Source: an uncultured virus (IMG/VR IMGVR_UViG_2898099943_000001) (Duplodnaviria > Heunggongvirae > Uroviricota > Caudoviricetes). Taken from it: a stretch of 20,000 nucleotides of DNA. The stretch is taken from positions 107,336 through 127,335 of IMG/VR virus record IMGVR_UViG_2898099943_000001; one strand, written 5' to 3'. Positions 1 to 20,000 of the stretch are shown here, one piece after another. Every line of letters begins with the position of its first letter. The stretch's first letter is position 1. The position numbers were made by a program, and so were the translations under genes. A model generated the notes under the pieces. The model was given only the letters and a program-made list of their open reading frames with translations. It searched no databases and had not been told where the DNA came from.

Positions 1-69
1 AGAGTTACAATTTCAATGTTGGTTGATAATTTAGCACAAGAAGAAGGGTGGAATAAGCTAGAATGGTAG
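1..69 (+). CDS. 3' end of an upstream CDS (RVTISMLVDNLAQEEGWNKLEW*), truncated by the window edge
   Basis: Frame 1 is open from base 1 to TAG at 67-69 and overlaps the start of the next gene, as in a coupled operon. Confidence 0.45.
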   Translation, partial: RVTISMLVDNLAQEEGWNKLEW

Positions 70-749: not shown

Positions 750-775
750 AAAACAATAAGGAGGGATTGCCTTAG

Positions 776-1930: not shown

Positions 1931-1977
1931 ATTAAATTGTGCAATACAAATAAATAATAAGGTGGGATTTAGGAAAA

Positions 1978-2955: not shown

Positions 2956-2956
2956 T

Positions 2957-2989
2957 AAAAAGGGACTCACTTTGATAGTGGGTTCTTTT
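2957..2989 (+). terminator. Intrinsic terminator-like hairpin (possibly bidirectional)
   Basis: AAAAGGGACTCAC-TTTGATA-GTGGGTTCTTTT directly after the stop codon. Confidence 0.7.
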
Positions 2990-3020
2990 CATATTAATAG
3001 ATAAGGTGGTTTTATGAAAG

Positions 3021-4265: not shown

Positions 4266-4276
4266 GTAGGTGGAAT

Positions 4277-5128: not shown

Positions 5129-5145
5129 GGAGGGCTATGTTTTAG

Positions 5146-5460
5146 TTGGATAGAACTAGCGAATTAGAGTATGTAAAGAATGAACTTGAACGTAACAAAA
5201 TGTTGTTGCTATCAAGTTTTGGATTAGAAGGTATTGTTAAATCAGAAAACAAGGAACGTATTTTCATGAAGATTATAGACAATACACATAAATATTTTAA
5301 TGTTTCTAATGGAGCGGTATTGAATATGCTGTTTAACACTTTGGAAATTATGTATCGAAGTGATAAAGCACTTAAATCATTATACGACCCAGAAACATTA
5401 AGTAAATTTGCAGCCGAAGAAAAAGCATATATAACAAATAATTTGATGAAAGTAGGGTAG
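5146..5460 (+). CDS. Hypothetical protein (104 aa)
   Basis: TTG start after AAGGAGGG; tightly packed in the operon. Confidence 0.75.
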   Translation: MDRTSELEYVKNELERNKMLLLSSFGLEGIVKSENKERIFMKIIDNTHKYFNVSNGAVLNMLFNTLEIMYRSDKALKSLYDPETLSKFAAEEKAYITNNLMKVG

Positions 5461-5464
5461 AAAC

Positions 5465-6946
5465 TTGCCAAAGAAAATAGAAGAGTTGTCAGATTTTGAA
5501 AAGAACTTAGTATACGACCAACAGCGTGAAGAAGGTTTGTATGTATTATCCATATACAAAGACACAGAATTGTATTATGAATACAAATTAAAACCAGAAA
5601 TGCTTGTTAGCAAAGGTTGGAAGGTATTCTATAGTATTGCACAAGACTTAATAGATAACAGTGGTGTGCACAAACTAGACGCTGTTACAGTGGGAACTTA
5701 TGTATCTGGACAAACTGAAAAGTTTCAAGACCTATACAATTCTTTTGGTGGTTATCAAGAAATCGCTGATGGTATGGATGTGGTTGAAGAAAGCAATATC
5801 GAAACATACTACAACAATATCCAAAAATACCAAGTGTTGAGAATTTTGTACAAGAAAGGTTTCCCTATCGAAAGTCAATGGAAAAAACTTAAAAGTATGC
5901 CTTTAGAAGAACTCAACGACTATTTTACTACTGTAATCAACAATGCTTTTATTGATACAGATAGTCAAAACGAAAAGGTTGGAGATATTTTTAGAGGCAT
6001 GGACGAAATGATAGAGTCCGCTAATCTTGGTAAGGAAGCTGGTTTACCACTAAAGTCAAAGCTAATGGAAAATATACAACATGGCTTACGTTTGGGTAAT
6101 ATTACTATGCTGGCAGCTCATTCTGGTGTTGGTAAAAGTTTCTTAACAACCTTAATTCATGTTCAATCATGTATTGAGAATAAAGAGTCTGTATTAATTA
6201 TTGCTAACGAAGAAGATAGAAGTAAATGGCAACAGGAATTGTTGGTTAGATTTATTAATACAAAACATAAGAATGCTTATTTCAATAAGAACCGTTTCTT
6301 TGATGGCAATTTTTCAGATAAGGAAATGGAGTATCTAAAAGAAGCAAGTAATTGGTACAAAGCCAACATTGAAGAAAACACTATACGATTTGTAAGTATG
6401 GAAAGTTTTAGTATGGCTAAGACAATCAGATTGATTAAGAAGTATGCAACAATGTATGATGTTAAGTATTTCGTATTAGATACGTTAAAGTTAGATAATG
6501 ACACAGGCTCACATGTTAGTGATAAAAGTTGGTTAGTTATGCAACAAAACATGGTTAGATTGTATAACGTTATCAAGGAATCCAGCTTGAATGTTCATGT
6601 CTGGGTTACAGCTCAATTATCTAAAGGTGGACGCAATTCAAGATATTTAGACCAATCACAATTAGGTGTTTCTAAAAATATCATTGACGTTGCCTCATCT
6701 GTTATGTTAGTTCGTGATGTAACTCAAAGTGAAAAAGACCCAAAGGCTAAGGCTTCTGAAAGATTAACGGTGCATAATGCAGCTGGATATGAAGTTGAAT
6801 TACAACCAGAAGATGATTATGTGATTGTATTCTGGGACAAGAACCGTCAAGGGACAACTAATGAACAAGTTGTATTAAAGGTAAATCGAGGTTTAAATAC
6901 CTTTACAGATGTAGGAACTTGTCGTTTAGATAGAGCATTGGTATAG
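5465..6946 (+). CDS. dnaB: DnaB-like replicative helicase (phage type)
   Basis: Walker A AHSGVGKS, Walker B YFVLDTLK, TAQLS motif, C-terminal KNRQG arginine-finger motif. Confidence 0.85.
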   Translation: MPKKIEELSDFEKNLVYDQQREEGLYVLSIYKDTELYYEYKLKPEMLVSKGWKVFYSIAQDLIDNSGVHKLDAVTVGTYVSGQTEKFQDLYNSFGGYQEIADGMDVVEESNIETYYNNIQKYQVLRILYKKGFPIESQWKKLKSMPLEELNDYFTTVINNAFIDTDSQNEKVGDIFRGMDEMIESANLGKEAGLPLKSKLMENIQHGLRLGNITMLAAHSGVGKSFLTTLIHVQSCIENKESVLIIANEEDRSKWQQELLVRFINTKHKNAYFNKNRFFDGNFSDKEMEYLKEASNWYKANIEENTIRFVSMESFSMAKTIRLIKKYATMYDVKYFVLDTLKLDNDTGSHVSDKSWLVMQQNMVRLYNVIKESSLNVHVWVTAQLSKGGRNSRYLDQSQLGVSKNIIDVASSVMLVRDVTQSEKDPKAKASERLTVHNAAGYEVELQPEDDYVIVFWDKNRQGTTNEQVVLKVNRGLNTFTDVGTCRLDRALV

Positions 6947-6953
6947 GAAAATT

Positions 6954-6978
6954 AGCACTCAAAAACGAGTGCTTTTTT
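6954..6978 (+). terminator. Rho-independent terminator
   Basis: AGCACTC-AAAAAC-GAGTGCT followed by TTTTT after the helicase stop. Confidence 0.85.
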
Positions 6979-6990
6979 CATGTTTAATTA

Positions 6991-7018
6991 TTGACTTAAT
7001 ATGTATATATGTTATAAT
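6991..7018 (+). promoter_or_regulatory. Sigma-A type promoter
   Basis: TTGACT (6991-6996), 16-nt spacer, extended -10 TGnTATAAT (TATAAT 7013-7018). Confidence 0.75.
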
Positions 7019-7029
7019 GTAATAGTTAA

Positions 7030-7059
7030 GTTAAGAGTTTAAAGAATAAACAAATAACT
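7030..7059 (+). repeat. Dispersed 30-nt motif, copy 1 (GTTAAGAGTTTAAAGAATAAACAAATAACT)
   Basis: Near-identical copies at 15434-15463 and 17679-17708. Confidence 0.75.
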
Positions 7060-7080
7060 TACAAGCACGAAATAAGGAAG

Positions 7081-7584
7081 GTGAAAATTCTGCTTAGTAA
7101 CTCTTTCTACGAGCATTTAAAAAACGCAGAGTATAAGAACGGTTTAGATGTTGAATGGACATTAGATGATAATGACCCAGACCTAGTATGGTGCAGAGAA
7201 TATCTAAGCAATCGTTATTTCTATCAAAGATATTACGCATTTGCAAATATGGTGATGGAGAACTTAACTCTACGAACAAAACCAACTCTCAAGCAAGTCC
7301 TTTCTAAATTTGCTGGTAAAAAGACGGATGAGCCATTCATAAAGAAGTTGAAAACAGATAAACACTTCAAAGAATATGTAAGTCTTGTCAAAAAACACCA
7401 AAATCATTATGTATTATCTAGTTCGCTCGGCATAGATGATACTACTATCTTTTCTAGTAAGGCAAAAGCCCTTAAATATATCCGTACAAATAATTTACAA
7501 GGCTATATTCCTTACCCCTACAACAAGTTACTTTGCAAGAAATACTTGAGAGGGAGGAGGGACATTGATGGAAATTGTAACTGA
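7081..7584 (+). CDS. Basic hypothetical protein (167 aa)
   Basis: GTG start after AAGGAAG; first gene after the promoter. Confidence 0.7.
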   Translation: MKILLSNSFYEHLKNAEYKNGLDVEWTLDDNDPDLVWCREYLSNRYFYQRYYAFANMVMENLTLRTKPTLKQVLSKFAGKKTDEPFIKKLKTDKHFKEYVSLVKKHQNHYVLSSSLGIDDTTIFSSKAKALKYIRTNNLQGYIPYPYNKLLCKKYLRGRRDIDGNCN

Positions 7585-7870
7585 TGAAGGTCGTGGAACT
7601 TTCAAGTTAAGACGTGATTTTAACATGGCAAAGTTCAAGTCGATTATTCATTATGAAATGTTCACAACTCTTGACCTTAAAGAGTATCACCGTTCTAAAG
7701 GTGCTATATCAGCTGTTTTAAGTAAAGATGATGTGGACAGGGCTATTGAGTCTGGTAGACCAATTTTGGTTTATCATGAAACAAGTAATCATGTAGCAGA
7801 TATGCTAGATTATTACAATGTTGATGACGCTCAAGCATTGAAAATAGTAAAGGCTGTGAAAAGCTCATGA
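7565..7870 (+). CDS. Hypothetical protein (about 100 aa; start may be ATG 7568)
   Basis: Strong RBS GGGAGGAGG; stop overlaps the next ATG (ATGA). Confidence 0.75.
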   Translation: MMEIVTDEGRGTFKLRRDFNMAKFKSIIHYEMFTTLDLKEYHRSKGAISAVLSKDDVDRAIESGRPILVYHETSNHVADMLDYYNVDDAQALKIVKAVKSS

Positions 7871-10188
7871 GAGATGGAATTAAATTTGTAGGAACGCTTA
7901 ATAACTATATTTTTTCTTCCAAAACAAGTGATTTTAAAATTGCTAGTATTAACGTTCTTGATGAGCTAGAAGGCTTATTCAGATACAACAATTATGGCAA
8001 TATCACACTTAAAGGTGGTATGGAGCTACTACCAAAAACAGAGTATGAAATTGTTGCCTCATACATTGTTGATAAGAAATATGGTGAGCAATATAATATC
8101 GAATCATACAAGCGTACACGTGCTATTGAAGATATGAGTGCAGAAGACTTTAACGAGTTTATGGCTAGTCTAGGTAATAGTGCTGATAAGGTCGCTGAAC
8201 ACTTTGGTGAAAAGACTAAAGATATTATGAATAAAGCTCTCGAACAAAACGATACCAGTGAACTTGAAAAGGTAAACGGTATTGGTAAGGTTAAGGCTTC
8301 AAAGATATTAGATAAGTATGGCAGCCAACGTGATTATAGTATGGCTATTGCAGTATTTGGTAAGTGGGGCTTTACTCATTCTAAGATTAAAACTATCGTT
8401 AACAAATATCGCAATCAAGATTTGGCTATTAAAAAGCTAAATGAAAATCCATATAATCTATATCTTGACCGTATTCCTGGCATAGGGTTCAAAACTATTG
8501 ATAACAAAGCGTTAGAAAATGGTGTTGCCCCTAATGACAGAAGACGTGTTGAGGCTTATATCTATAATTTCTTTGATGATTTAAGCATGTCTGGTGACTC
8601 ATATATTCCTATTGAAAAGCTACGTAATCATCTACGTACCGAAGTCTACAATGTTGATTTAGATAGTGCTACTAACTTTATCTTAGGCAATGAAGACTTT
8701 AAGATATTCAAAAAAGATGGTGTTAATTGCGTAGCTTTAAGGGAAACATATGAACTTGAGAAGAAAACAGCTTATGAACTATTAAGGGTTCAAAATGCTT
8801 GGGATAACAAAAAGAGTATTGATGATATTGATACCTACATATCAGAAGTCGAAGAAGAACAAGGCTGGAAGTATGGGAAGCAACAATTAGAAGCTATCCA
8901 TACCATCGCCACAAATAACGTCTTCTTATTACAAGGTTATTCTGGTACAGGTAAATCATCTTTGCTTAAAGCAGTGGTAAGAGCTATGCAAGCTAATGAC
9001 TTTACAATAGCTCAATGTGCTTTATCTGGTAAGGCAGCGGACAACTTAACCAAAGTTACAGGGTTGCAAGGTATGACTATTCATAGATTATTGCAATACA
9101 ACCCTAGTTCAGATTCCATGTTTAATTATTGGAAGAAGAACCCATTGCCTTATGATGTAATTATTTTAGATGAAGTTTCAATGGTTAATTTAGACCTGTT
9201 TTATAGTTTGGTTAGTGCAATCAAAGATGGGGCTAAGTTAATCATGGTAGGTGACTCGGGTCAGCTTGACTCAATCGGTATCGGTGTTATGTCTGGCATT
9301 TTAGACTCGCAAGTTATTCCTACAATCACCTTAACTGAAATTCATAGACAAGCAGAAGAAAGTGCCATTATATCTCATTCTATTACGTATCGTAAAGGTG
9401 TTATGCCAAAGGAAGTAAACAAAGAAGGCTTATTCCTATGCGGCACTAAAAAGGACTTAGTATATAAGTTACTTGAGAATGAGAAGGAACATGATAATCA
9501 AGGTAGAGTGGTAGATAATCTAATTCCTAACGCTTTAGTCTTTTTCAAGAAAGCCTTGAGCAAGTATAACGTGAAGGATATTCAGATTATCACACAAACT
9601 ACAAAGAATTGTAATGCGTTAAATGCCCTTTGCCAACAGATTGCCAACCCTAAGAATAGGGAAAAGGAAGAGTATGTCGTTTCATTCCAAAACAAAGATG
9701 ATGATTATGTTTTACGTGTAGGTGATAAGGTTATCAATACAGTAAACAATAGACGTACTGTTTCTGCTGAAAAAGGTAATACTATTACTCCTATCTATAA
9801 TGGTAACACTGGGATAATTGAGTCTATTACAAAACAAGTTGACGAAGATGGCGATGAATATATCGAGTCTGTAATCAACTTTGACGGTATTGGTAGAGTT
9901 CTTTTAACCAGTGGTGATTTGAGAAGTATCAGACTTGGATATGCTATTACAGTACATAAATCACAGGGTTCTACTATTCCATGTGTAATTGTGGTATTGC
10001 CATTCCAATTCATGTTGAACAGTCGTGAGTTGGTTTATACAGCTATTACACGTACAAGTGAATTATGTTTTGTAATATCTAGTTATGCTACTTTGGCTAA
10101 GGCTATTAAGAAGTCCACAAACAAGGTGCATAAGACAAATCTATCTGCATTCATGTCTTTGGAAGCCAGAAAGAGAGGTGAAATTTAG
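7867..10188 (+). CDS. recD2: RecD2-like SF1B DNA helicase
   Basis: N-terminal OB-like region with YGEQY, HhH motifs (VNGIGKVKA, IPGIGFKTID), Walker A GYSGTGKS, TIHRLL, DEVSMV, VGDSGQL, HRQ, YAITVHKSQGS, YTAITR. Confidence 0.92.
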   Translation: MRDGIKFVGTLNNYIFSSKTSDFKIASINVLDELEGLFRYNNYGNITLKGGMELLPKTEYEIVASYIVDKKYGEQYNIESYKRTRAIEDMSAEDFNEFMASLGNSADKVAEHFGEKTKDIMNKALEQNDTSELEKVNGIGKVKASKILDKYGSQRDYSMAIAVFGKWGFTHSKIKTIVNKYRNQDLAIKKLNENPYNLYLDRIPGIGFKTIDNKALENGVAPNDRRRVEAYIYNFFDDLSMSGDSYIPIEKLRNHLRTEVYNVDLDSATNFILGNEDFKIFKKDGVNCVALRETYELEKKTAYELLRVQNAWDNKKSIDDIDTYISEVEEEQGWKYGKQQLEAIHTIATNNVFLLQGYSGTGKSSLLKAVVRAMQANDFTIAQCALSGKAADNLTKVTGLQGMTIHRLLQYNPSSDSMFNYWKKNPLPYDVIILDEVSMVNLDLFYSLVSAIKDGAKLIMVGDSGQLDSIGIGVMSGILDSQVIPTITLTEIHRQAEESAIISHSITYRKGVMPKEVNKEGLFLCGTKKDLVYKLLENEKEHDNQGRVVDNLIPNALVFFKKALSKYNVKDIQIITQTTKNCNALNALCQQIANPKNREKEEYVVSFQNKDDDYVLRVGDKVINTVNNRRTVSAEKGNTITPIYNGNTGIIESITKQVDEDGDEYIESVINFDGIGRVLLTSGDLRSIRLGYAITVHKSQGSTIPCVIVVLPFQFMLNSRELVYTAITRTSELCFVISSYATLAKAIKKSTNKVHKTNLSAFMSLEARKRGEI

Positions 10189-10571
10189 TGACAAAACCAT
10201 ATCGTTGGTATAAAGGTGAACCTGTTATCATGAAGCGTGTTTACTACATAGGCAATCAAATGTTTACTAGGTTGGAACACTTCTATACTAAGGAAGTAAT
10301 TCCAGCAGTTGATGTTCATGATGTTAAAGATACTCGTGAAGAAAGCCTAGAAATTGCTAGTGATTTACAGGAAGAACCAAAGCAAGAAGAACAAACACAA
10401 GTCAATAAGATTAAATTTACTGACGCAGATGGTAATGAAAATGTGTTTGAAGAAAACAGCGAAGAATACCAAAAGTTTGTTGATAACAACAAGCTAAAAG
10501 ATGAGTTTATTGGACGTGTCTTAGATGGCAAAATCAATAAACATAAAGGTTTTAATATCGAACGTGTATAG
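10188..10571 (+). CDS. Hypothetical protein (127 aa); C-terminus weakly resembles a NUMOD1/HTH-like DNA-binding motif
   Basis: GTG start after GAGGTGA; ends IGRVLDGKINKHKGF. Confidence 0.7.
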   Translation: MTKPYRWYKGEPVIMKRVYYIGNQMFTRLEHFYTKEVIPAVDVHDVKDTREESLEIASDLQEEPKQEEQTQVNKIKFTDADGNENVFEENSEEYQKFVDNNKLKDEFIGRVLDGKINKHKGFNIERV

Positions 10572-10604
10572 CCTTAACATTCGGGAAGTGTGCAAGGGTA
10601 TGTA

Positions 10605-10751
10605 ATGTTTGATGATTATGAAACTTCTGAATTATTAGATATACTCAATTACATTTTACGTTCTGGAAGATGGAAAGAGTTGGAGTATGTCTATTCAGAG
10701 TTAGTTTTAGAACTACGAAAGCGTAGTGAATTGATGGGTATGATTTATTAA
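10605..10751 (+). CDS. Small hypothetical protein (48 aa, MFDDYETSELLDILNYILRSGRWKELE...)
   Basis: Translated by hand (below the track cutoff); weak RBS AAGGG; fills the intergenic gap. Confidence 0.5.
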   Translation: MFDDYETSELLDILNYILRSGRWKELEYVYSELVLELRKRSELMGMIY

Positions 10752-10756
10752 GGCAT

Positions 10757-10923
10757 AAAAAATAGGATAGCCTTATCAGAATCAGCTATCCTAGAACCTC
10801 GTGAGTGTACCGACCTTTTTTAATTCCGAATATTAGGTTTACAGGATGGAAGTAAGAAAGGTGTTTTTGACATTTTTCGTTTCAGTTTCAGTATGTTAAA
10901 ACAATTAGAGGTACACTCGGTTC
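10757..10923. ncRNA. Candidate multi-stem structured RNA upstream of the pnuC-family gene
   Basis: Hairpin 10763-10793; closing stem GAACC..GAGTGTACC / GGTACACTCGGTTC (10794-10923) enclosing stems 10813-10862 and 10863-10902. Confidence 0.5.
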
Positions 10924-11040
10924 ATACCTATTATACCTTAAATTCATTACGTTTTCTATAACAAATTAAGAAGCGATGTTAATCGTGGATAAGCAAGTCG
11001 TAAGACTGAAAGCTAAAGAGAAGAAAGAGGTTGAATTATT

Positions 11041-11808
11041 TTGGAAAACAATACAATAGATAAGTTTGATAACACAGGTGCATGGTATAACGTGTTGAAA
11101 CCAACATGGTATGTAGAACAAATGAAAGGCTGGTCTTTTCCTAGCTACATGCTGTTGATGTTTGGTTTGGGTGCAATTATTGGTATGACAGCTGCTAGTG
11201 GTATCAATGGTATCTCAATTTTAACTTTGTTGGCTGGTACATTAGGTTTCACATGTACTATTTCTATCACAAACGCTAAACCATTAAACGGTATTTTTGG
11301 TTTGGTTAGTGCTTTGATTTACATTACAGTAGCTATTCATGCTAAGAACTTCAATGATGTTTTATTGCAAACTGTTTATATCCTGTTATTAGACTTACCA
11401 GTATTGCTTATGCCATCTTGGGCAAAGAACGTTGAAGAAAAGGTACGTTTCTTACATGAAGGTGGTAAAGGTAAGCGTAATTGGTTATTAACATTAGTAT
11501 TCTTTGTAGTAGTTGCTTTGGTGTTGTACTACTCAGATACACATTGGTTCATTAGCCCACGTCCAGTTGTAGATAGTGTGGCAGCAGCTATTGGTATTAC
11601 AGGTGCTATGTTAACTACATTACGTTTCTCAGAAAGTTATTATTTCTGGATTGCACAAGGTCTTTCTTCTGTTGTTTTATGGGGAATTACCGCAGCAAGT
11701 GGAGCAGTTAACTGGGTATTATTCGTAACATACCTATTGTACTTATCTAATGACGCAGTTGCATTATTCGATAAGAAGATTAGCTGGTTTCACCATACTA
11801 ATAAATAA
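11041..11808 (+). CDS. pnuC: PnuC-family (nicotinamide riboside / nucleoside-type) membrane transporter
   Basis: About 7-8 hydrophobic helices; motifs KPLNGIFGLVS, PVVDS and LTTLRFSESYYFWIAQ typical of Pnu transporters; TTG start after GAGGT; substrate not determinable from sequence. Confidence 0.8.
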   Translation: MENNTIDKFDNTGAWYNVLKPTWYVEQMKGWSFPSYMLLMFGLGAIIGMTAASGINGISILTLLAGTLGFTCTISITNAKPLNGIFGLVSALIYITVAIHAKNFNDVLLQTVYILLLDLPVLLMPSWAKNVEEKVRFLHEGGKGKRNWLLTLVFFVVVALVLYYSDTHWFISPRPVVDSVAAAIGITGAMLTTLRFSESYYFWIAQGLSSVVLWGITAASGAVNWVLFVTYLLYLSNDAVALFDKKISWFHHTNK

Positions 11809-11908
11809 GACTCCTATTTGCTAAAAGAATAATGGTTGTTGTAGACTGGTTTTCCAGTCTTTTAGAAGCAGTGGACATGAGCTACTGTTTCTAAAAGGAG
11901 GGAAAATA

Positions 11909-12088
11909 ATGAAAGTGTTGAAAGTGTTTGTAGGAACTTGTGCACTCACATTAGCTTTGCTTTTCTTTTACATATCAAGTAGAGCATTCATGGTAGGCAT
12001 GTTTGTGATTAGTTTCATGTCTGCGTTAATCGTAATAGGTATGGGTCATCTATCATATTCAATGTTAGTAGATTTGTTTGAAGATTAA
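11909..12088 (+). CDS. Small two-TM membrane protein (59 aa, MKVLKVFVGTCALTLALLFFY...)
   Basis: Translated by hand; RBS AAGGAGGG; stop overlaps the next RBS. Confidence 0.75.
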   Translation: MKVLKVFVGTCALTLALLFFYISSRAFMVGMFVISFMSALIVIGMGHLSYSMLVDLFED

Positions 12089-14776: not shown

Positions 14777-15147
14777 CAAGTGCTGAAAGAAAGTTCAATA
14801 AAGCAGTACGTAGATTAGACATGTACTTAGAAGATGGTAATATGGTCTCTGCTGACATTGAACTAAAATCTATGCGTAGAGTATATGATGAAATGAAGAA
14901 ACTAGAAAGTCATAGTGTTACCTTCTGGCTTTTTGTTACAGCAGCTCTAGTTGTGTATATTGGTATGGGGTGGGGTAAGTATGAAATACCAACCATATTT
15001 GTTACAGGAGTAGAGGCAATATCATTTGCTTTGATGACTTATGTTTCTAATATAGTAGACAATTTCATTGATAATATTGAATACTGGGAAAATGAGTATA
15101 ACAGACATAAGGAGGTGAATAGAACGGTTGACGACAGTATCAACTAA
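14773..15147 (+). CDS. Two-TM membrane protein (124 aa)
   Basis: RBS AAGGAGG; two hydrophobic segments. Confidence 0.75.
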   Translation: MTSAERKFNKAVRRLDMYLEDGNMVSADIELKSMRRVYDEMKKLESHSVTFWLFVTAALVVYIGMGWGKYEIPTIFVTGVEAISFALMTYVSNIVDNFIDNIEYWENEYNRHKEVNRTVDDSIN

Positions 15148-15388
15148 TAATGTAGTAACAGTATATACTAAGAATAATTGTCCGCAATGCAAGATAACAA
15201 AACGTAAGTTGCATTCTATGGGAATTGACTATCATGAATACAATGTAGATGAAGACCCCAAAGCATTAGATTATTTGTTAGAAAGAGGCTTGCGTAGTTT
15301 ACCTGTTGTAGTTACAGAAGATGATACATGGACTGGGCTACGAATGGACAAGTTAAACAATCTTCAAAAAAAGATGAATATTTCTTAG
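15128..15388 (+). CDS. nrdH: Glutaredoxin-like NrdH redoxin
   Basis: VTVYTKNNCPQCKITK, GLRSLPVV and WTGLRMDKL motifs; RBS AAGGAGGTG. Confidence 0.9.
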   Translation: MTTVSTNNVVTVYTKNNCPQCKITKRKLHSMGIDYHEYNVDEDPKALDYLLERGLRSLPVVVTEDDTWTGLRMDKLNNLQKKMNIS

Positions 15389-15395
15389 TTTTCTG

Positions 15396-15426
15396 TTGAC
15401 TTTTATTTTTTATATGGTATTATAAT
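15396..15426 (+). promoter_or_regulatory. Sigma-A type promoter at the head of the ncRNA/tnpB region
   Basis: TTGACT 15396-15401; TGnTATTAT (15418-15423) or TATAAT (15421-15426). Confidence 0.7.
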
Positions 15427-15433
15427 ATATGTA

Positions 15434-15463
15434 GTTAAGAGTTAAGAGAATAAACGAATAACT
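15434..15463 (+). repeat. Dispersed 30-nt motif, copy 2
   Basis: GTTAAGAGTTAAGAGAATAAACGAATAACT, just after the promoter like copy 1. Confidence 0.75.
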
Positions 15464-15543
15464 CAAGGCTACAACAAAACAATTAAATAAATCTATTATA
15501 TGTGTAGAACTTACAAAATGTGTCCTGTTAAGTGAGTTCAACA

Positions 15544-15622
15544 ATCGGATAGCTTAATGGCAGAGCGTACGAGTATGATAACGATACTTGTAAGGTTTGG
15601 TGTTCAATTCATCAATCCGATA
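15544..15622 (+). tRNA. Aberrant tRNA-like RNA with 9-bp anticodon stem (possibly tRNA-Ile derived)
   Basis: ATCGGAT/ATCCGAT acceptor, D arm GCTTAATGGCAGAGC, stem TACGAGTAT/ATACTTGTA with loop GATAACG, T loop GTTCAATTC. Confidence 0.6.
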
Positions 15623-15771
15623 TTTGTCACGATAACTATAATGATACTTGATTTTGTGCATTCACAATGAATGTGCATCCTTTTACTAAAATATTTTGTT
15701 TATTTTCTTTACTTATGTAGCGGTTATCGTGGCGACACCTCCAAAAGATTGGTAGGTGGGTGATTAACGGA

Positions 15772-15858
15772 TTTGCCCATCTACATAGGGTTTGGTTAGA
15801 ATATTGGTTTACAACTCCTTCCGTCAAGAAGTTACCAAATCCTATGTAGGTGAACAAA
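15772..15858 (+). ncRNA. 25-bp stem with 37-nt loop carrying an anti-SD motif
   Basis: TTTGCCCATCTACATAGGGTTTGGT / ACCAAATCCTATGTAGGTGAACAAA; G-U wobbles favour the + strand; loop contains ACAACTCCTTCC. Confidence 0.55.
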
Positions 15859-15910
15859 ACTTAGTTTACCTAAACAACTTTCGCAAATTTAAAAAAGGGT
15901 GGTGAGTAAG

Positions 15911-17068
15911 ATGTTAAAAGGTATTAAGTTGCGTATATATCCAAATAAGAAACAACGTGAACAACTAGATATTATGTTTGGGAATAGTCGTTTTGTTTGG
16001 AATAATATGTCAGCTATGATGAATGAGCGTTATAAGAATAACAAAGATTTGCCTATATTGAGTGGTTATGACTTGAATAACTTACTAAAGCCATTGAAAG
16101 TTGAATATCCATTTTTGAAAGAGAGTGATAGTTCTGCTTTACAAGTAGATTGCCAAAATCTATATCAAGCGTGGAAGAACTTCTTTAATTCTGGTTTTGG
16201 CAAGCCTAGATTTAAATCTAGGAAATTCTATAAGCAATCATATACGGGTAAGTTGGTAAGTATCCATGTAATAGCTAAAAGATATATGAAAATGCCTAAG
16301 CTAGGATATATTAAGTCTAGCAAAACATCCCAGCTCACCGATTGTAAGATTAAACGTTATACACTAAGTCATGATACAACTGGTCGTTATTATTTATCTT
16401 TACAGGTAGAATGTGAAAATCAAGCATTGTTACCTAAGACAAATAAATCAGTTGGACTAGATTTAGGTGTAGCAGACTTAGCTATTTCTTCTGATGGAAT
16501 TAAATATAATACATTTCATGTGGAAGATTTAGAAGATAAAGCTAAATTGTGGCAACGTAAGTTTTCTAAACGTAGACATCAAGCTAAAGTTTGTATTGAG
16601 AGTGATAAATACTCTAAAGTATTAGTACCTAGAGATTTTGATGATTTTAAAAATCTGCAAAAAGCTCAAAGAGCTAAAGCTAGATTACAAGCTAAAATAG
16701 CCAACACACGCAAAGATTACTTGCATAAATTAACCACAATGTTAGTTAAACAATACGATATTATCGTTATTGAAGATTTAAAGGCTAAGAATATGATGAA
16801 AAATCATAAACTAGCTAAAGCAATAGCTAACGGTTCATGGTATTTGTTCCGTTCTATGTTGGAATATAAGTGTAATTGGTATGGCAAACAACTAATAGTA
16901 GTTAGTCCCAAATACACTTCACAAGTGTGTTCTAACTGCGGTGTAAATACAGGTAAGAAACCATTAGATGTTCGTGAGTGGACTTGTGATAATTGTGGTA
17001 TACATCACGATAGAGATATTAACGCTGCTAGAAACATCTTGGCTAAAGGATTAAAAGAAGTAGCTTAA
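15911..17068 (+). CDS. tnpB: IS200/IS605/IS607-family TnpB RNA-guided endonuclease (TnpB-1)
   Basis: N-terminal HTH ([10 protein letters not shown]), RuvC-I GLDLG, RuvC-II IEDL, Zn finger CSNC/CDNC, Ruv[17 protein letters not shown] 15911 after GGTGGTGA (track start GTG 15899). Confidence 0.93.
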
Positions 17069-17187
17069 ATAAACATAAAGGTATGGGACGTGCCTCGGTA
17101 ATATATCTAGGTTCTGTAAGTTAGGCTTAGTTCTAAATACTACCTAGAGTTCCCAGAAACCACCGTTTTTAATCGGTGTGTAGTCCA
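17069..17187 (+). ncRNA. TnpB-1 omegaRNA scaffold / element right end; putative guide starts near 17188
   Basis: 5' hairpin 17079-17095 with loop GGGAC complementary to terminal GTCC (17183-17186); central TCTAGGT/ACCTAGA stem; end hairpin CACCG/CGGTG 17161-17178. Confidence 0.7.
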
Positions 17188-17294
17188 TCAGCGAGTAGAC
17201 GGTTTACTTTTCAATGTATTTTTTATGCTCTTGATTATATATTTCCATTTTTAAGCTACTCGTTGATATATCCATCTTAATCGGAGGTGTAAGT

Positions 17295-17510
17295 TTGGAT
17301 AAATTAAGTAATATGATTGATAGATTTCTCTTAACGAGAACATGGTATTTAATTCAATGGTTGTTTATTATGACTGTTGCGTTTGACCTAATCTTTTATA
17401 GTTATGGTTTTTGGACTAAGTTATTCTATTTAGCTGGTTTGGCAGCTGGGTTTAGTAATATAAAAGAATGGCATAAAAAGCATATCTATCAATCAAAACG
17501 TAAACATTAA
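17295..17510 (+). CDS. Small two-TM membrane protein (71 aa)
   Basis: TTG start after GGAGGTG; two hydrophobic segments and a basic tail. Confidence 0.7.
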   Translation: MDKLSNMIDRFLLTRTWYLIQWLFIMTVAFDLIFYSYGFWTKLFYLAGLAAGFSNIKEWHKKHIYQSKRKH

Positions 17511-17521
17511 AATACATAGGC

Positions 17522-17655
17522 AGCTTTGATGGTTGCTAAAGGGAACGGGTTGGTTTTTCACATCCTTTCAATGAATATAGATAATTAACCCCTATTTACT
17601 AATACGATACTGACAAAGTTTTTCGTCCCGTTCTCTCTAGGAGCTATCAAAAGCT
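17522..17655 (+). ncRNA. Long imperfect stem enclosing an anti-SD loop
   Basis: AGCTTTGATGGTT..GGGAACGGG / CCCGTTCTC..AGCTATCAAAAGCT; loop contains TTTTTCACATCCTTTC. Confidence 0.5.
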
Positions 17656-17678
17656 CTCCCAAAACAAGTCTACTATAT

Positions 17679-17708
17679 GTTAAGAGTTTAGAGAATAAAC
17701 GAGTAGAC
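17679..17708 (+). repeat. Dispersed 30-nt motif, copy 3
   Basis: GTTAAGAGTTTAGAGAATAAACGAGTAGAC, enclosed by a GTCTACT/AGTAGAC stem. Confidence 0.7.
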
Positions 17709-17873
17709 ATTTGGTATGTAAAATGTTGGACTGTCGGGAACACTATACCACACAAGCTAATATGCGGCTTTTACATACCACGCTCACAGACTTTAAAGGG
17801 AATGTGGGAGCGGATAGGCGAACGCGAATAGTGTAGTTAGTAAACCTATGCGTAATTATTTATCCTAGTTGGT

Positions 17874-17948
17874 AGTCATGTGGTGTATTCGGGTAACACG
17901 CTCGTCCTTGAAACGAGAGCAGCAAGGTTCAATTCTTTGCCATGACAT
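17874..17948 (+). tRNA. tRNA-Gln(TTG)-like, atypical
   Basis: GTCATG/CATGAC acceptor, D stem GTGT/ACAC, anticodon stem CTCGT/ACGAG with loop CCTTGAA (C33), T loop GTTCAATTC; no encoded CCA. Confidence 0.7.
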
Positions 17949-18048
17949 AGAGGTGGAAACACCTCGAAACAAACATTTATTAATTCGTTCATTTTTTATT
18001 GGTTGATTATTTTGCGTATTAATCAACACTCCTTTTTAAATTATTTTG

Positions 18049-18100
18049 TTGCCGCAGATGTAAAAGGTACATTTTATGAGTTCGACTCCTAATGTGGTAA
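18049..18100 (+). ncRNA. Degenerate tRNA-like RNA lacking an anticodon arm
   Basis: TTGCCGCA/TGTGGTAA closing stem, ATGTA-AAAGG-TACAT D-like arm, GAGTTCGACTC T-like arm. Confidence 0.45.
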
Positions 18101-18244
18101 TAGGGGGTAGGGCATGACTACCCCGAGATTATAACTTTGCGTTAAGTAATAATGCGACATTAATAAGTTAATTCATGAACAGGTTCATTACGACTTACGG
18201 ATTGGTTCATGGTTTAGATTTCCTCCTTTTAGAATTAGAAGGTT

Positions 18245-18305
18245 AGCAACGTAGCTCAACTGGTAGAGCGGAAGGATGATGTGGGTTCGAGTCCCACCGT
18301 TGCAA
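18245..18305 (+). ncRNA. tRNA-like RNA with canonical D and T arms but no anticodon arm
   Basis: GCAACG-TA-GCTCAACTGGTAGAGC-GGAAGGATGAT-GTGGGTTCGAGTCCCAC-CGTTGC. Confidence 0.75.
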
Positions 18306-18351
18306 TTAGCCAATATGGCTATAAATATACAATAGAAAAGAGGTGAGATAG

Positions 18352-19608
18352 ATGAAGACAATGAGTGAGTTGAAATACCATTATGGTTTAAAGATGTGCA
18401 TTCATCCTAGTACAAAGCAAAAACAAATCATTAAGATGAACAGTGATGTATCTAGGGCTGTATATAACGCTATGGTTGCGATTGATAAAGAGTTGTATCA
18501 ACTCAAACAGGTAAAACTACCTATTGATACAATCCAAACACGTATTGTTGAATTGGAACAACGCAAGAAAGCTCAAAACTATTTAGCAACGCACTATACT
18601 TACATGAAACACCCTTATATTGATAGTCATTGTCGTTCTATGGCAATGCGTTCTTATAAAGCTGCATGGAATATGTTTAGAAAAGTTCATAACGCTGGTA
18701 CACCTAATTTTCATAAGAAAACTTACGAGGAGAAGTATCAAACAAGTGGAGCTTATACGAGTAAGAAGAAACCAGTTAATATGTGGACTGGCTCAATTAG
18801 ATTTGTAGACAATAAACATATTAATATTCCTAAGCTGGGTATTATTCGTGTGAGTGGTTCGTATAGAAAACTACTAGATAATAAAGATGATATTAGAATT
18901 GGCACAACTACTATTTCTAAAAATGCTTTTGGTATCTACTACGTTTCTATGCAGTTGGGTTCAGATACACCTTTTGTTAAAGAATTGCCTAAAACAAATT
19001 CTCAAATCGGAATCGACTTGAATACAGATAACTTCTTAACAACAAGCGAAGGTAATGTTATAGCTAACCCGAGATTTTATAGAACAATCAAGGGTAGATT
19101 AGCTAAGGCTCAACGTAAGTTGTCACGTAGATACGTTAGAGCTAAAAAAGAAGGTCGTTCCTTGCGTGACAGTAAGAATTACCAAAAACAACGCATAGTG
19201 GTATCAAAACTTATGAATAAAGTGCGTAATCAACGTAATAAATTCTTGGACGAGATGTCGATAACACTTATCAAGAACCACGATTTGGTTGTGGCAGAAA
19301 ATCTAAGAAGTAGAAATATGCTCAAAAATCACGCTTTAGCTATGTCTATTAGTGATGTAGGTTGGCGAACATTCCTACAAAAACTAGAATACAAAGCTGA
19401 ATTATATGGTAAGACTTTTATTACTGTAAATCCTAAAAATACTACACAAACATGTAGCGAATGTGGACATGTTATGGGAACAAAAGATACGGATAAGCTA
19501 ACACTAAGAGATAGAAGTTGGGCTTGTCCTAGCTGTAACACTTACCATATACGTGATGTAAACGCAGCGAAGAATATCCTAAGTAAAGGATTAAAACAAT
19601 TAGCCTAG
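18352..19608 (+). CDS. tnpB: TnpB-family RNA-guided endonuclease (TnpB-2), CRISPR-array-associated; candidate nascent Cas12
   Basis: HTH (GLKMCIHPSTKQ), RuvC-I GIDLN, RuvC-II VAENL, Zn finger CSEC/CPSC, RuvC-III RDVNAAKNI; RBS GAGGTGA; no tnpA adjacent. Confidence 0.92.
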   Translation: MKTMSELKYHYGLKMCIHPSTKQKQIIKMNSDVSRAVYNAMVAIDKELYQLKQVKLPIDTIQTRIVELEQRKKAQNYLATHYTYMKHPYIDSHCRSMAMRSYKAAWNMFRKVHNAGTPNFHKKTYEEKYQTSGAYTSKKKPVNMWTGSIRFVDNKHINIPKLGIIRVSGSYRKLLDNKDDIRIGTTTISKNAFGIYYVSMQLGSDTPFVKELPKTNSQIGIDLNTDNFLTTSEGNVIANPRFYRTIKGRLAKAQRKLSRRYVRAKKEGRSLRDSKNYQKQRIVVSKLMNKVRNQRNKFLDEMSITLIKNHDLVVAENLRSRNMLKNHALAMSISDVGWRTFLQKLEYKAELYGKTFITVNPKNTTQTCSECGHVMGTKDTDKLTLRDRSWACPSCNTYHIRDVNAAKNILSKGLKQLA

Positions 19609-19750
19609 CAATAGGTAGTCCGTTTGTCTGTTGCGGACTTTAAAGCATTTGGTAATTATCATGTAAGACCTTTATTTCAGATTTTTCTGATACGAAGGCA
19701 ACGATGTATCTAATGAAATTTTGGCAACCCTAAAAAATTAGGAGTTCCCA
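19609..19750 (+). ncRNA. omegaRNA-derived scaffold (candidate tracr-like RNA) of TnpB-2
   Basis: Hairpin AGTCCG/CGGACT (19617-19639) with loop TTTGTCTGTTG; shares GGTAAT, TGTAAG and GAGTTCCCA landmarks, in the same order, with the TnpB-1 omegaRNA. Confidence 0.65.
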
Positions 19751-19790
19751 AAACCCTAGTACTGTGGGATTTATTGGTCTGATTTTTAGT
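19751..19790 (+). promoter_or_regulatory. Short CRISPR leader-like segment
   Basis: 40 nt between the scaffold and repeat 1, ending TTTTTAGT, similar to the ends of type I-E leaders. Confidence 0.5.
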
Positions 19791-20000
19791 GTGTTACCCA
19801 TATGTACGTGGGACAGACTTCATTGTCATATCGTATTATTTAACATTTAAAGTGTTACCCATATGTACGTGGGACAGACTATCAAGAAACTATAAAGAAT
19901 TGCAGGAGGTTAGTGTTACCCATATGTACGTGGGACAGACTCATAGCTCACAAGCAATCACCATGCGATATATGTGTTACCCATATGTACGTGGGATAGA
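19791..20000 (+). CRISPR. CRISPR array: repeat GTGTTACCCATATGTACGTGGGACAGACT (29 nt), 32-nt spacers; runs off the window end
   Basis: Identical repeats at 19791-19819, 19852-19880 and 19913-19941; fourth at 19974-20000 (truncated, C>T at 19997); three unique 32-nt spacers; exact 61-nt period; internal hairpin CCCAT/GTGGG. Confidence 0.95.

What the first reader, a model, noticed from the sequence alone, without database searches (positions are those of the whole stretch)
19617..19819. Scaffold loop GTCTGT pairs with repeat 3' end ACAGAC: omegaRNA pseudoknot rebuilt between scaffold and crRNA
Seen: the first hairpin after tnpB-2 (AGTCCG/CGGACT) exposes GTCTGTT (19626-19632), complementary to GACAGAC at the 3' end of each repeat, 1 nt before the spacer (6 Watson-Crick pairs plus one G-U). 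No ACAGAC occurs between the scaffold and the first repeat. The one repeat variant (C>T, 19997) turns a C-G pair into U-G and keeps the pairing. In TnpB-1 the equivalent loop (GGGAC) pairs with GTCC just before the guide. Known: omegaRNAs form a pseudoknot between a 5' loop and the bases preceding the guide. Inference: scaffold and repeat are co-adapted, so each spacer sits in the guide position (in cis for spacer 1, in trans for later ones). This argues against chance juxtaposition.
Basis: partly seen in the sequence, partly recalled or inferred. Interest (0 to 1): 0.9.

Follow-up and report, generated by a model that had tools for sequence, protein, structure and literature searches.

The report
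Guide-RNA pseudoknot kept in phage TnpB-CRISPR
A small transposon-type RNA-guided nuclease on a phage-like plasmid has turned the end of its guide RNA into a short CRISPR array, and the six-base pairing that normally locks the guide in place is kept between the constant RNA scaffold and every repeat.

Summary
The hairpin AGTCCG/CGGACT (19617-19639) exposes GTCTGT. It is complementary to ACAGAC, which ends each 29-nt repeat one base before the spacer.

It is more than chance. TnpB-2 is an IS605-family TnpB, and its 182-nt downstream region aligns end to end with the omegaRNAs of about 70 array-less Lactobacillaceae relatives (48-73% aa). In those, the same loop pairs in the same register with positions -7 to -3 before the guide. 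That pairing covaries: CAACC/GGTTG in 51 sequences, CAACT/AGTTG in 15, none mixed. The array-bearing clade (6 loci) has a third pair of sequences, GTCTGT/ACAGAC, still in register.

Each repeat is a copy of the omegaRNA's last module: stem-loop plus pseudoknot strand. The array has 5 repeats and wraps the end of the record. Spacers differ in every relative.

Best reading: a TranC-like transposon-to-CRISPR intermediate with a short, scoutRNA-like dock-anchor tether.

Not shown:
- that later spacers are used in trans;
- any cleavage;
- any target, since no protospacer was found.

Against: one relative (L106) has an uncompensated loop change. A second GTCTG lies just before repeat 1.

The kind is already described (TranC, V-U), so this is a new member with an unusually clear ancestry.

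The parts
18352..19608 (+). tnpB-2, 418 aa, IS605-family TnpB-type RNA-guided nuclease (effector)
   Evidence: Pfam OrfB_IS605, Cas12f1-like_TNB and HTH_OrfB_IS605. D222/E316/D402 and the two CxxC pairs are present, and the frame is intact, in 6 of 6 clade members.
19609..19790 (+). omegaRNA-derived scaffold (tracr/scout-like constant RNA)
   Evidence: Aligns over its whole length with the omegaRNAs of array-less relatives. In those relatives the family structure covaries: 0 of 500 shuffles reach the observed score. RNA-library contigs from 4 studies cover it.
19617..19639 (+). hairpin 1: stem AGTCCG/CGGACT, loop TTTGTCTGTTG
   Evidence: I19. MFE and centroid folds keep it with an open loop. 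It is homologous to hairpin 1 of the relatives.
19626..19631 (+). dock GTCTGT, the 5' strand of the pseudoknot
   Evidence: Loop positions L-8 to L-3. Pairs in register with positions -2 to -7 of each repeat. P(unpaired) 0.98.
19719..19753 (+). scaffold helix TTTTGG (19719-24) / CCAAAA (19748-53) enclosing an inner hairpin
   Evidence: Homologous to TTGTGG/CTCACAA of relatives. Within the clade, G19724:C19748 becomes A:T in L009, L106 and in the RNA contigs of X7 and X11.
19753..19769 (+). the scaffold's own degenerate copy of the repeat stem-loop (ACCCTAGTACTGTGGGA)
   Evidence: In L009 this segment is followed directly by ATAGACT and a 32-nt spacer.
19770..19790 (+). 21-nt tail before repeat 1, containing a second GTCTG (19777-19781)
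   Evidence: A form of it is kept in 5 of 6 clade members and absent in L009. Role unexplained.
19791..19819 (+). repeat 1: GTGTTA + stem-loop CCCAT..GTGGG (19797-19812) + anchor ACAGAC (19813-19818) + T
   Evidence: The repeat stem keeps pairing through changes in relatives: CCCACA/TGTGGG and CCCATG/CATGGG.
19820..19851 (+). spacer 1 (32 nt)
19852..19880 (+). repeat 2 (anchor 19874-19879)
19881..19912 (+). spacer 2
   Evidence: One marginal hit to an hsdS-like ORF.
19913..19941 (+). repeat 3 (anchor 19935-19940)
19942..19973 (+). spacer 3
19974..20000 (+). repeat 4, variant ATAGAC (T at 19997), cut by the window end. The array continues at the start of the record with spacer 4 and repeat 5.
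15899..17188 (+). tnpB-1 (389 aa, 36% identical to TnpB-2) with its own omegaRNA. Hairpin loop GGGAC at 17085-17089 and GTCC at 17183-17186, two bases before the point where relatives diverge.

Best explanation
TnpB-2 is a domesticated IS605-family TnpB on a roughly 127-kb phage-like plasmid. An identical-type locus sits on a named Ligilactobacillus salivarius megaplasmid.

Its omegaRNA has become a constant scaffold followed by a 5-repeat mini-CRISPR array. Each 29-nt repeat is a copy of the omegaRNA's last module: a short stem-loop (the counterpart of ISDra2 stem 4), the 6-nt pseudoknot strand ACAGAC and one more base. The 32-nt spacer therefore sits exactly where the transposon-flank guide sits in ordinary omegaRNAs.

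The loop of the first scaffold hairpin (dock, GTCTGT) pairs with that strand (anchor). This rebuilds the pseudoknot that TnpB and Cas12 proteins recognise next to the guide. One scaffold can in this way present any repeat-spacer unit to the nuclease, much as a scoutRNA or tracrRNA presents a crRNA. That would give a 418-aa TnpB several guides, most likely for conflict with other mobile elements.

Shown here:
- homology of the scaffold to omegaRNAs;
- covariation of the pseudoknot in the family;
- in-register complementarity in the array-bearing clade;
- origin of the repeat from the scaffold's 3' end;
- conserved layout with changing spacers;
- an intact catalytic triad;
- presence of scaffold plus repeats in RNA libraries.

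Inferred:
- that the pairing forms in the RNP;
- that units after the first are used, whether in trans or by long-range cis pairing followed by trimming;
- how the RNA is processed;
- DNA cleavage;
- the biological target.
For: 1. Protein. Pfam TnpB domains are present. The D/E/D triad and zinc-finger cysteines are intact in 6 of 6 clade members.

2. Scaffold homology. The alignment of 75 distinct omegaRNA/scaffold sequences shows the conserved blocks TTGGTAATTA, GTAAGACC, GTATCTA and AAATTGTGG...CTCACAAGC.

3. Pseudoknot in register. Loop positions L-3 to L-7 are set against omegaRNA positions -7 to -3.
   - 66 of 75 have five Watson-Crick pairs.
   - 4 of 75 have one wobble.
   - 5 of 75 have at least one mismatch.
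   - The pair L-3:-7 is C:G in 51, T:A in 15 array-less and 6 array-bearing sequences, T.G in 3, and never C:A.

4. On a 56-row alignment the pseudoknot helix is 98.5% paired. Pair 36:214 reads CG 42, UA 10, other 3. The whole structure beats 500 of 500 shuffles and all slid controls.

5. On the quick tree the T:A type sits at four separate places among C:G rows.

6. Against its nearest type (CAACT/AGTTG), the array-bearing clade changed four of the five pairs on both sides. It also turned the G.A at -2 into G:C. ISDra2 has the same register: -5 to -3 are Watson-Crick and -2A:-106G is non-canonical (PMC10097598, passages read).

7. Chance of 6 of 6 pairs in register: 0.0003.

8. The repeat derives from the scaffold end. 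In L009 the scaffold stem-loop plus ATAGACT runs straight into a spacer and then true repeats. Similarity test: 0 of 2000 shuffles reach the observed score.

9. Spacers differ completely among the window, L007, L008, L009, L105 and L106. RNA-library contigs X1 and X7 run from repeat 1 into yet other sequence.

10. Contigs from metatranscriptome libraries of 4 studies cover the gene's 3' end, the scaffold and repeat 1. One of them reaches a further repeat.

11. The loop and anchor are predicted to be unpaired.

12. Short dock-anchor pairing just 5' of the guide is an established design in Cas12c/d (PMC9522604, passages read).
Against: - Within the array-bearing clade there is no compensatory change in the pseudoknot, only wobble variants (ATAGAC). 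So the within-clade data do not test it.
- L106 (91% aa) has the loop GTCCGT against ACAGAC, a central C.A mismatch. Its array and scaffold end also look decayed.
- A distant array-less group (L176, L178, L179; about 49% aa) fits the register poorly: u x W W x. I left it out of the alignment used.
- A second GTCTG in the tail before repeat 1 is kept in 5 of 6 members and could pair with CAGAC(T) instead.
- The lowest-energy scaffold-repeat duplex is not the pseudoknot. It is the scaffold's degenerate stem-loop against the repeat stem-loop, at -20.3 kcal/mol.
- Contigs in RNA libraries may stem from DNA and cannot show RNA ends.
- No Cas1 is found in the record, so the route by which spacers are gained is unknown.
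Confidence: 0.7

Rival explanations
1. Complementarity by descent only. The repeats are tandem copies of the old omegaRNA 3' end, so they match the loop simply because the ancestor did. Only a unit fused to the scaffold, or none, is functional, and the array is a neutral or decaying by-product.
For: - Repeats are copies of the scaffold end.
- In the window the scaffold's own unit has lost its anchor.
- L106 looks decayed and carries a loop mismatch.
- No Cas1 is present.
Against: - Units are regular (29 + 32 nt), with entirely different spacers in each of six relatives whose proteins are 91-97% identical.
- Repeat stems keep pairing through changes.
- The anchor is kept in all full repeats, while the spacers are not.
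- ORFs and the catalytic triad are intact in 6 of 6.
- The scaffold helix shows a compensatory change within the clade, 19724:19748.
Confidence: 0.15
2. A conventional anti-repeat is the real tether. Either the scaffold's degenerate stem-loop (19753-19769) or the tail (19776-19782) base-pairs with the repeat as a tracrRNA does. The loop-anchor match is then secondary.
For: - The best predicted duplex is 19753-19769 with repeat positions 6-23, at -20.3 kcal/mol.
- The tail motif AGTCTG/GGTCTG is kept in 5 of 6 members.
- Published TranC and Cas12f systems use anti-repeats (secondary sources).
Against: - The scaffold segment does not follow repeat changes. L105 and repeat 2 of L007 have CCCACATACGTGTGGG while the scaffold is unchanged. 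The repeat's own two arms do covary.
- L009 lacks the tail.
- The loop-anchor pair is the homologue of a pairing that covaries in about 70 relatives.
- A further candidate, GTAACAC in the ORF against the repeat 5' end, does not covary.
Confidence: 0.12
3. Chance juxtaposition of a TnpB element and an unrelated orphan CRISPR array.
For: None beyond the absence of cas genes.
Against: - The layout is the same in 6 of 6 clade members and in RNA-library contigs.
- The repeat is homologous to the scaffold end.
- The complementarity is in register.
- The host species' chromosomal CRISPR repeat is 36 bp, by the paper on the named sibling plasmid's strain (PMC4165912, passages read).
Confidence: 0.01

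Closest known systems
ISDra2 TnpB omegaRNA (Nakagawa et al. 2023, PMC10097598; passages read)
   Same: One long RNA encoded after the gene. A pseudoknot joins a 5' element to the bases just before the guide: -5 to -3 are Watson-Crick and -2A is non-canonical. A last stem with a UUUA loop precedes it. The array-less relatives found here have the same layout, down to a TTTA loop and an A at -2.
   Different: Here the 3' module is repeated five times with 32-nt spacers. The scaffold's own module has lost its anchor. The element has no transposon right end and no adjacent tnpA.
TranC, transposon-CRISPR intermediates (Jin et al., Cell 2025; paper not held, known through PMC13565253, PMC13639567 and bioRxiv 10.64898/2026.03.27.714800, passages read)
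   Same: A TnpB-like effector next to a short CRISPR array without adaptation genes. The ancestral omegaRNA/reRNA is functionally split into a constant RNA and crRNAs. Some examples are phage-borne and TnpB-sized: CauTranC9 has 5 repeats.
   Different: - Repeats here are 29 nt, against 32-38 nt reported for clades 3, 9, 11 and 20.
- The repeat carries a whole stem-loop, and the only pairing with comparative support is 6 nt.
- Whether this lineage is one of the published clades could not be tested.
scoutRNA / short dock-anchor pairing of Cas12c and Cas12d (Harrington et al. 2020 as described in PMC9522604; passages read)
   Same: A structured non-coding RNA holds the crRNA by 3-5 complementary bases of the repeat immediately 5' of the guide, forming a pseudoknot.
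   Different: Those effectors are large Cas12 proteins with other RNA folds. In the Cas12c2 structure further pairings were found. Here the scaffold is a recognisable omegaRNA.
Cas12f tracrRNA:crRNA (as compared in PMC10097598)
   Same: The pseudoknot equals repeat:anti-repeat duplex 1, next to the guide. The effector is miniature.
   Different: Cas12f also forms a second repeat:anti-repeat duplex in place of stem 4. Here the repeat supplies both arms of that stem itself.
Type V-U6 to V-U45 candidates (Altae-Tran et al. 2023, PMC10691335; passages read)
   Same: TnpB branches associated with downstream arrays and no cas1. The paper proposes that arrays arose by serial duplication of omegaRNA segments.
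   Different: That proposal is general. Here the duplicated segment and its register can be named. The one supplementary file held did not contain the sibling's accessions, so membership is unknown.

Membership tests
IS200/IS605-family TnpB (protein) | OrfB_IS605 RuvC core with D/E/D, a zinc-finger TNB domain and an N-terminal HTH/WED region | tested here: met
   Pfam hits above cut-off. D222, E316 and D402 are invariant. Motifs and CxxC pairs are present in 6 of 6 clade members.
omegaRNA of TnpB | Structured RNA encoded from the gene's 3' end, with a pseudoknot between a 5' element and the bases before the guide | tested here: met
   Full-length alignment to relatives' omegaRNAs. Pseudoknot in register in 70 of 75 sequences, counting wobbles. 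Covariation shown.
Mobile IS605-type element | Left and right ends, often tnpA, several copies, and a guide that equals the flank of the right end | tested here: not met
   - Upstream lies a tRNA-like sequence, not tnpA or a left end.
- The record holds only two TnpB genes, of different lineages.
- The right end is replaced by the array.
- Array-less relatives do have tnpA or conserved left ends.
CRISPR array | At least 3 regular direct repeats with unique spacers of constant length | tested here: met
   5 repeats of 29 nt with a 61-nt period and 4 unique 32-nt spacers.
CRISPR-Cas with adaptation module | cas1 (and cas2) nearby | tested here: not met
   No Cas1 (PF01867) in the 127-kb record. 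cas2 was not searched.
TranC / type V-U | Conserved association of a TnpB-like effector with a downstream array across relatives | tested here: met
   6 of 6 members at 91-97% aa keep the layout with different spacers.
TranC / type V-U | Guide RNA split into a constant RNA and crRNAs, both able to guide cleavage | not testable with these tools
   Only sequence inference is available. RNA-library contigs cannot show RNA ends.
TranC / type V-U | Placement in a published clade | not tested
   The Cell 2025 paper is not held. The PNAS supplement that is held lacks the sibling's accessions.
scoutRNA systems (Cas12c/d) | A Cas12c or Cas12d effector | tested here: not met
   The effector is a 418-aa TnpB. 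The likeness is in RNA design only.

The most novel reading that the evidence does not exclude
This lineage shows a separate route of omegaRNA splitting. The cut lies upstream of the last stem, not in its loop. Each crRNA therefore carries a whole stem-loop and is held on a complete omegaRNA scaffold by the 6-bp pseudoknot alone. Both states survive in close relatives: fused scaffold-guide plus array in L009, and scaffold with a dead first unit plus array in the window. New units may arise by duplication or recombination of the omegaRNA end, without Cas1-Cas2. That would be a living series for the birth of a type V array on a phage-plasmid.
Probability: 0.35. Interest if true: 0.75.

Novelty: new member of a known kind. 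Interest (0 to 1): 0.55.

Why it matters
- It gives a readable series from mobile single-guide TnpB elements (about 60% identical, same omegaRNA) to a TnpB-sized effector with a multi-guide array. The duplicated RNA module and the conserved pairing register can both be named.
- A sequence-identical copy of one sibling locus lies on a named megaplasmid of a cultivable commensal strain. Dock and anchor mutants, RNA end mapping and interference assays are therefore straightforward.
- If the 6-bp dock-anchor contact suffices, it suggests a simple way to run compact TnpB editors with one constant scaffold and short programmable crRNAs.
- It adds a case of a phage-like plasmid carrying such a system.

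Tried and rejected
Spacer targets were sought and none was found:
- GenBank phages, BLAST with spacers 1-3 and with spacers 3-4: nothing, or chance-level matches (E 0.6).
- The record itself and all fetched loci: only the arrays themselves.
- Three sibling records: only their arrays.
- 401 Lactobacillaceae genomes: one marginal hit (25 of 28 bases, E 8e-4 per genome, so about 0.3 expected overall).
- 33 Ligilactobacillus genomes: only E of about 0.03.
- PLSDB plasmids: only the sibling array.
- Exact 22-mers of four spacers in IMG/VR: three found only their own array and one found nothing.

Other dead ends:
- Rfam has no omegaRNA-type hit in 15000-20000, only tRNA.
- A second anti-repeat, GTAACAC at 19535-41 in the ORF against the repeat 5' end GTGTTAC, was rejected. 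L009 has GCAACAC with GTACTAC/GTGCTAC repeats, so there is no covariation, and the site is a coding zinc-finger motif.
- The scaffold stem-loop as anti-repeat has no covariation with the repeat variants.
- Promoter scan: no convincing separate promoter for the array. Four promoter-like sites were found against 7.5 expected.
- The TAM could not be derived without protospacers. The left flanks of Companilactobacillus copies share TTCAT at the junction. I did not pursue this.
- The window's locus and a helicase gene were compared with GenBank phages. There was no DNA match, and the best protein match was 34% identical.
- The TranC paper could not be read.
- MAFFT could not bring the 3' ends of the array-bearing and array-less rows into the same columns. 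The cross-clade pseudoknot count was therefore done in a script, anchored on the loop and on the guide junction.
Full report
**What is there**

The window is the last 20 kb of a 127,335-bp IMG/VR virus record. Two TnpB genes lie near its end. TnpB-1 is at 15899-17068 (389 aa) and TnpB-2 at 18352-19608 (418 aa). Both have the Pfam domains of IS605-family TnpB and they are 36% identical to each other.

After TnpB-2 come three things:
- 182 nt of non-coding sequence;
- repeats of 29 nt (GTGTTACCCATATGTACGTGGGACAGACT) every 61 nt;
- the window end, which cuts repeat 4.

The record's exact 94-nt terminal overlap lies inside the array. Read as a circle, the array has 5 repeats and 4 spacers of 32 nt. 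No Cas1 is found in the record, and it holds no further TnpB.

**The observation**

- GTCTGT at 19626-31 matches ACAGAC in repeats 1-3.
- The fourth repeat has ATAGAC, which gives a U.G pair.
- There is no ACAGAC between the gene and repeat 1.

A second GTCTG lies at 19777-81, in the 21-nt tail before repeat 1. The scaffold also keeps a degenerate copy of the repeat stem-loop at 19753-69.

**Relatives**

Protein-guided searches gave three sets of loci:
- 9 loci in IMG/VR;
- 80 kept of 111 in one-genome-per-species bacteria;
- 80 kept of 85 in metagenomes.

Six loci form the array-bearing clade at 91-97% aa identity: the window, L007, L008, L009, L105 and L106. All other loci are 48-73% identical. 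They are mostly Lactobacillaceae insertion elements, several with a divergent IS200-type tnpA or a conserved left end.

To inspect the downstream sequence I printed the 240-260 nt after the stop codon for:
- 70 of the 80 genome loci (10 lacked the gene's 3' end);
- 8 viral loci;
- 39 of the 80 metagenome loci.

None of the array-less ones shows the repeat in that stretch.

A quick IQ-TREE run (the careful search did not finish) used 50 rows; three rows were dropped for internal stops. It places the six as one clade with support 100, nested among array-less elements.

The L007 locus is sequence-identical over 1,700 nt to a named PLSDB record, a 129-kb circular megaplasmid of Ligilactobacillus salivarius. 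I count the two once. The paper on that strain describes the plasmid as a putative chromid. It reports a CRISPR only on the chromosome, with 36-bp repeats (PMC4165912, passages read).

**The scaffold is an omegaRNA**

I aligned 75 distinct sequences that run from the stop codon to the guide junction. The phage-type scaffold aligns over its whole length with the omegaRNAs of the array-less elements.

For a cleaner alignment I took 56 of the 75. The 19 rows dropped were:
- five array-bearing rows, whose 3' ends MAFFT cannot place;
- 14 rows with long insertions or high divergence, among them the poorly fitting L176 group.

On this alignment I tested a four-helix structure that I named myself: hairpin 1, an internal closing helix, the last stem and the pseudoknot. 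The result:
- 96.6% of cells are paired.
- 16 of 24 pairs show changes on both sides.
- 0 of 500 shuffles reach any measure.
- All slid controls are far lower.

The last stem of the array-less elements has a TTTA loop and is followed by T-GGTTG-AC and then the flank. This matches the ISDra2 description: a UUUA loop, pseudoknot pairs at -5 to -3, and a non-canonical -2A (PMC10097598, passages read).

**The pseudoknot test**

I anchored the loop on the 3' arm of hairpin 1 and the partner on the guide junction. I then set loop positions L-3 to L-7 against omegaRNA positions -7 to -3 for all 75 sequences:

| Outcome | Sequences |
|---|---|
| Five Watson-Crick pairs | 66 of 75 |
| One wobble (L009, L086, L094, L161) | 4 of 75 |
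| At least one mismatch (L106, L038, L176, L178, L179) | 5 of 75 |

Three pairs of sequences occur:
- CAACC with GGTTG, in 51 sequences;
- CAACT with AGTTG, in 15 array-less sequences, at four separate places on the tree;
- GTCTGT with ACAGAC, in the six array-bearing loci.

No sequence combines C at L-3 with A at -7.

I compared the array-bearing clade with CAACT/AGTTG, the type that shares its hairpin stem AGTCCG/CGGACT. The clade changed four of the five pairs on both strands. It also made the -2 position a sixth Watson-Crick pair. The chance of 6 of 6 pairs in this fixed register is 0.0003. The hairpin lies after the stop codon, so coding constraint plays no part.

**Limits of that test**

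- Inside the array-bearing clade the pseudoknot varies only by wobble (ATAGAC) or loss of one base (GCAGAC in repeat 2 of L007). The clade itself gives no compensatory event.
- L106 has GTCCGT, an uncompensated central mismatch. Its scaffold end and array also look decayed.
- The L176 group, about 49% identical, ends in AGCTTGAC and fits the register poorly.

**Where the repeat comes from**

In L009 the scaffold's last stem-loop is followed by ATAGACT. It then runs directly into a 32-nt spacer and into repeats GTACTACCCATGCGTACATGGGATAGACT. The scaffold end and the repeat are clearly the same sequence: 0 of 2000 shuffles reach the alignment score.

In the window, L007, L008, L105 and L106 the corresponding scaffold unit has lost the anchor. 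A conserved tail..(G/A)GTCTG(A/T/G)TTTT(T)AGT, follows it before repeat 1. In the window the scaffold-repeat similarity is weaker: 88 of 2000 shuffles reach the score.

The two arms of the repeat keep pairing through changes:
- CCCAT..GTGGG in the window;
- CCCACA/TGTGGG in L105 and in repeat 2 of L007;
- CCCATG/CATGGG in L009.

This supports an intramolecular stem-loop in the crRNA, the counterpart of the last omegaRNA stem.

**Signs of function**

- All six ORFs are intact, with the D/E/D triad and the zinc-finger cysteines.
- Spacers are entirely different in all six loci while the repeats are kept.
- The scaffold helix pair G19724:C19748 is A:T in L009 and L106. The contigs of X7 and X11 show the same two changes.
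- Contigs from metatranscriptome libraries of four animal-gut studies cover the last 30-130 nt of the gene, the scaffold and repeat 1 at 88-97% identity.
  - Those of X1 and X7 run on into other sequence after repeat 1.
  - The X11 contig reaches a further repeat after 142 other letters.
  - Such contigs may contain DNA and cannot show RNA ends, so this is a weak hint of expression and of co-transcription.
- The loop and the anchor are predicted to be unpaired.

**Rival tethers**

The lowest-energy scaffold-repeat duplex is the scaffold's degenerate stem-loop against the repeat stem-loop, at -20.3 kcal/mol. That scaffold segment does not follow the repeat variants of L105 and L007.

The tail GTCTG could pair with CAGAC(T) of repeat 1, but L009 lacks the tail.

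A 7-nt match between the ORF (19535-41) and the repeat 5' end does not covary and lies in a coding zinc-finger motif.

I keep these as minority readings. The role of the tail is unexplained.

**TnpB-1**

Its downstream RNA has a hairpin with loop TGGGACG. At the 3' end it has GT(C/T)C, followed by AT and then divergent sequence. This holds in five sequences: the window and four relatives at 57-89% identity. The result is consistent with a 4-bp pseudoknot (GGAC/GTCC), with wobble variation only.

**Targets**

No protospacer was found in any collection searched (listed under Tried and rejected). The TAM and the biological role therefore remain open.

**Comparison with what is known**

- The pseudoknot next to the guide is described as common to omegaRNA and Cas12 guide RNAs. 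In Cas12f it is repeat:anti-repeat duplex 1 (PMC10097598).
- Short dock-anchor pairing just before the guide is known from Cas12c/d scoutRNAs (PMC9522604).
- TnpB branches with downstream arrays and no cas1 were catalogued as V-U6 to V-U45, with the proposal that arrays arise by duplication of omegaRNA segments (PMC10691335).
- TranC systems are reported as transposon-CRISPR intermediates with a functionally split RNA. They include a TnpB-sized, phage-borne example with 5 repeats (bioRxiv 10.64898/2026.03.27.714800 and two reviews, passages read). The primary paper is not held.
I did not test that note.

**Verdict**

The system is a new member of the TranC / V-U kind, with unusually legible ancestry. 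Its RNA design may be distinct: a whole stem-loop in the repeat and a 6-bp tether. Use in trans, RNA processing, cleavage and targets are inferred, not shown.

Noticed in passing
window 19881-19912 (spacer 2); L189 1501-1528: There is one marginal match: 25 of 28 bases, E 8e-4 per genome over 401 genomes. It lies inside a minus-strand ORF that looks to me like a type I restriction-modification specificity subunit; that label is recalled, not tested. The reverse complement of the spacer reads PPAILYSFLI against TPAYLYSFFI in the ORF. This may hint that the true target is an hsdS-like gene, or it may be chance.
   Followed up: partly
window 19770-19790: The tail between the scaffold and repeat 1 carries a second GTCTG (19777-81). 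It is kept in 5 of 6 clade members and absent in L009. It could pair with CAGAC(T) of repeat 1. Its role is unexplained.
   Followed up: partly
G000:C1 1-94 and 127242-127335 (window 19907-20000): The record's 'direct terminal repeat' is an exact 94-nt overlap lying inside the CRISPR array (repeat 3, spacer 3, repeat 4). It is an assembly overlap of a circular molecule rather than a phage terminal repeat.
   Followed up: yes
window about 15430-15460 and 17676-17705; G000:C1 22288, 67725, 106699, 122761, 125014: A motif of about 30 nt (TATATGTAGTTAAGAGTT.AG.GAA.AAACGA) recurs on both strands of the record and also just after the array of L007. It may be a promoter or regulatory repeat of the element.
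   Followed up: no
window 15544-15622 and 18245-18305: Rfam scores two further tRNA-like sequences (32 and 44 bits) that ARAGORN does not call. Only tRNA-Gln at 17875-17947 is called by both. The one at 18245-18305 lies directly upstream of tnpB-2.
   Followed up: no
window 15899-17188: TnpB-1 has its own omegaRNA, with a GGAC/GTCC pseudoknot candidate two bases before the junction. Relatives of it (89% and 59% aa) also lie on the contig that holds L009.
   Followed up: partly
window 1-12000: The element carries phage-type replication and recombination genes by PHROGs: exonuclease, DnaB-like helicase, a RecD/Dda-like helicase and a PnuC-like transporter. The nearest GenBank phage protein is only 34% identical. 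A sequence-identical sibling locus lies on a record published as a megaplasmid or putative chromid, so the family may be phage-plasmids.
   Followed up: partly
L030, L043, L046, L053, L092, L093 (first 50 nt after the stop): Several Lacticaseibacillus and Paucilactobacillus copies carry about 50 extra nt before hairpin 1. The insertion starts like hairpin 1 (AGTCCGTCTGGC..) and then diverges, so it is a partial duplication of the dock hairpin.
   Followed up: no
L016, L019, L056, L085 (upstream flanks): The left junctions of solo-tnpB copies in Companilactobacillus all read TTCAT at the point where homology begins. This is a candidate target or TAM motif for the family.
   Followed up: no
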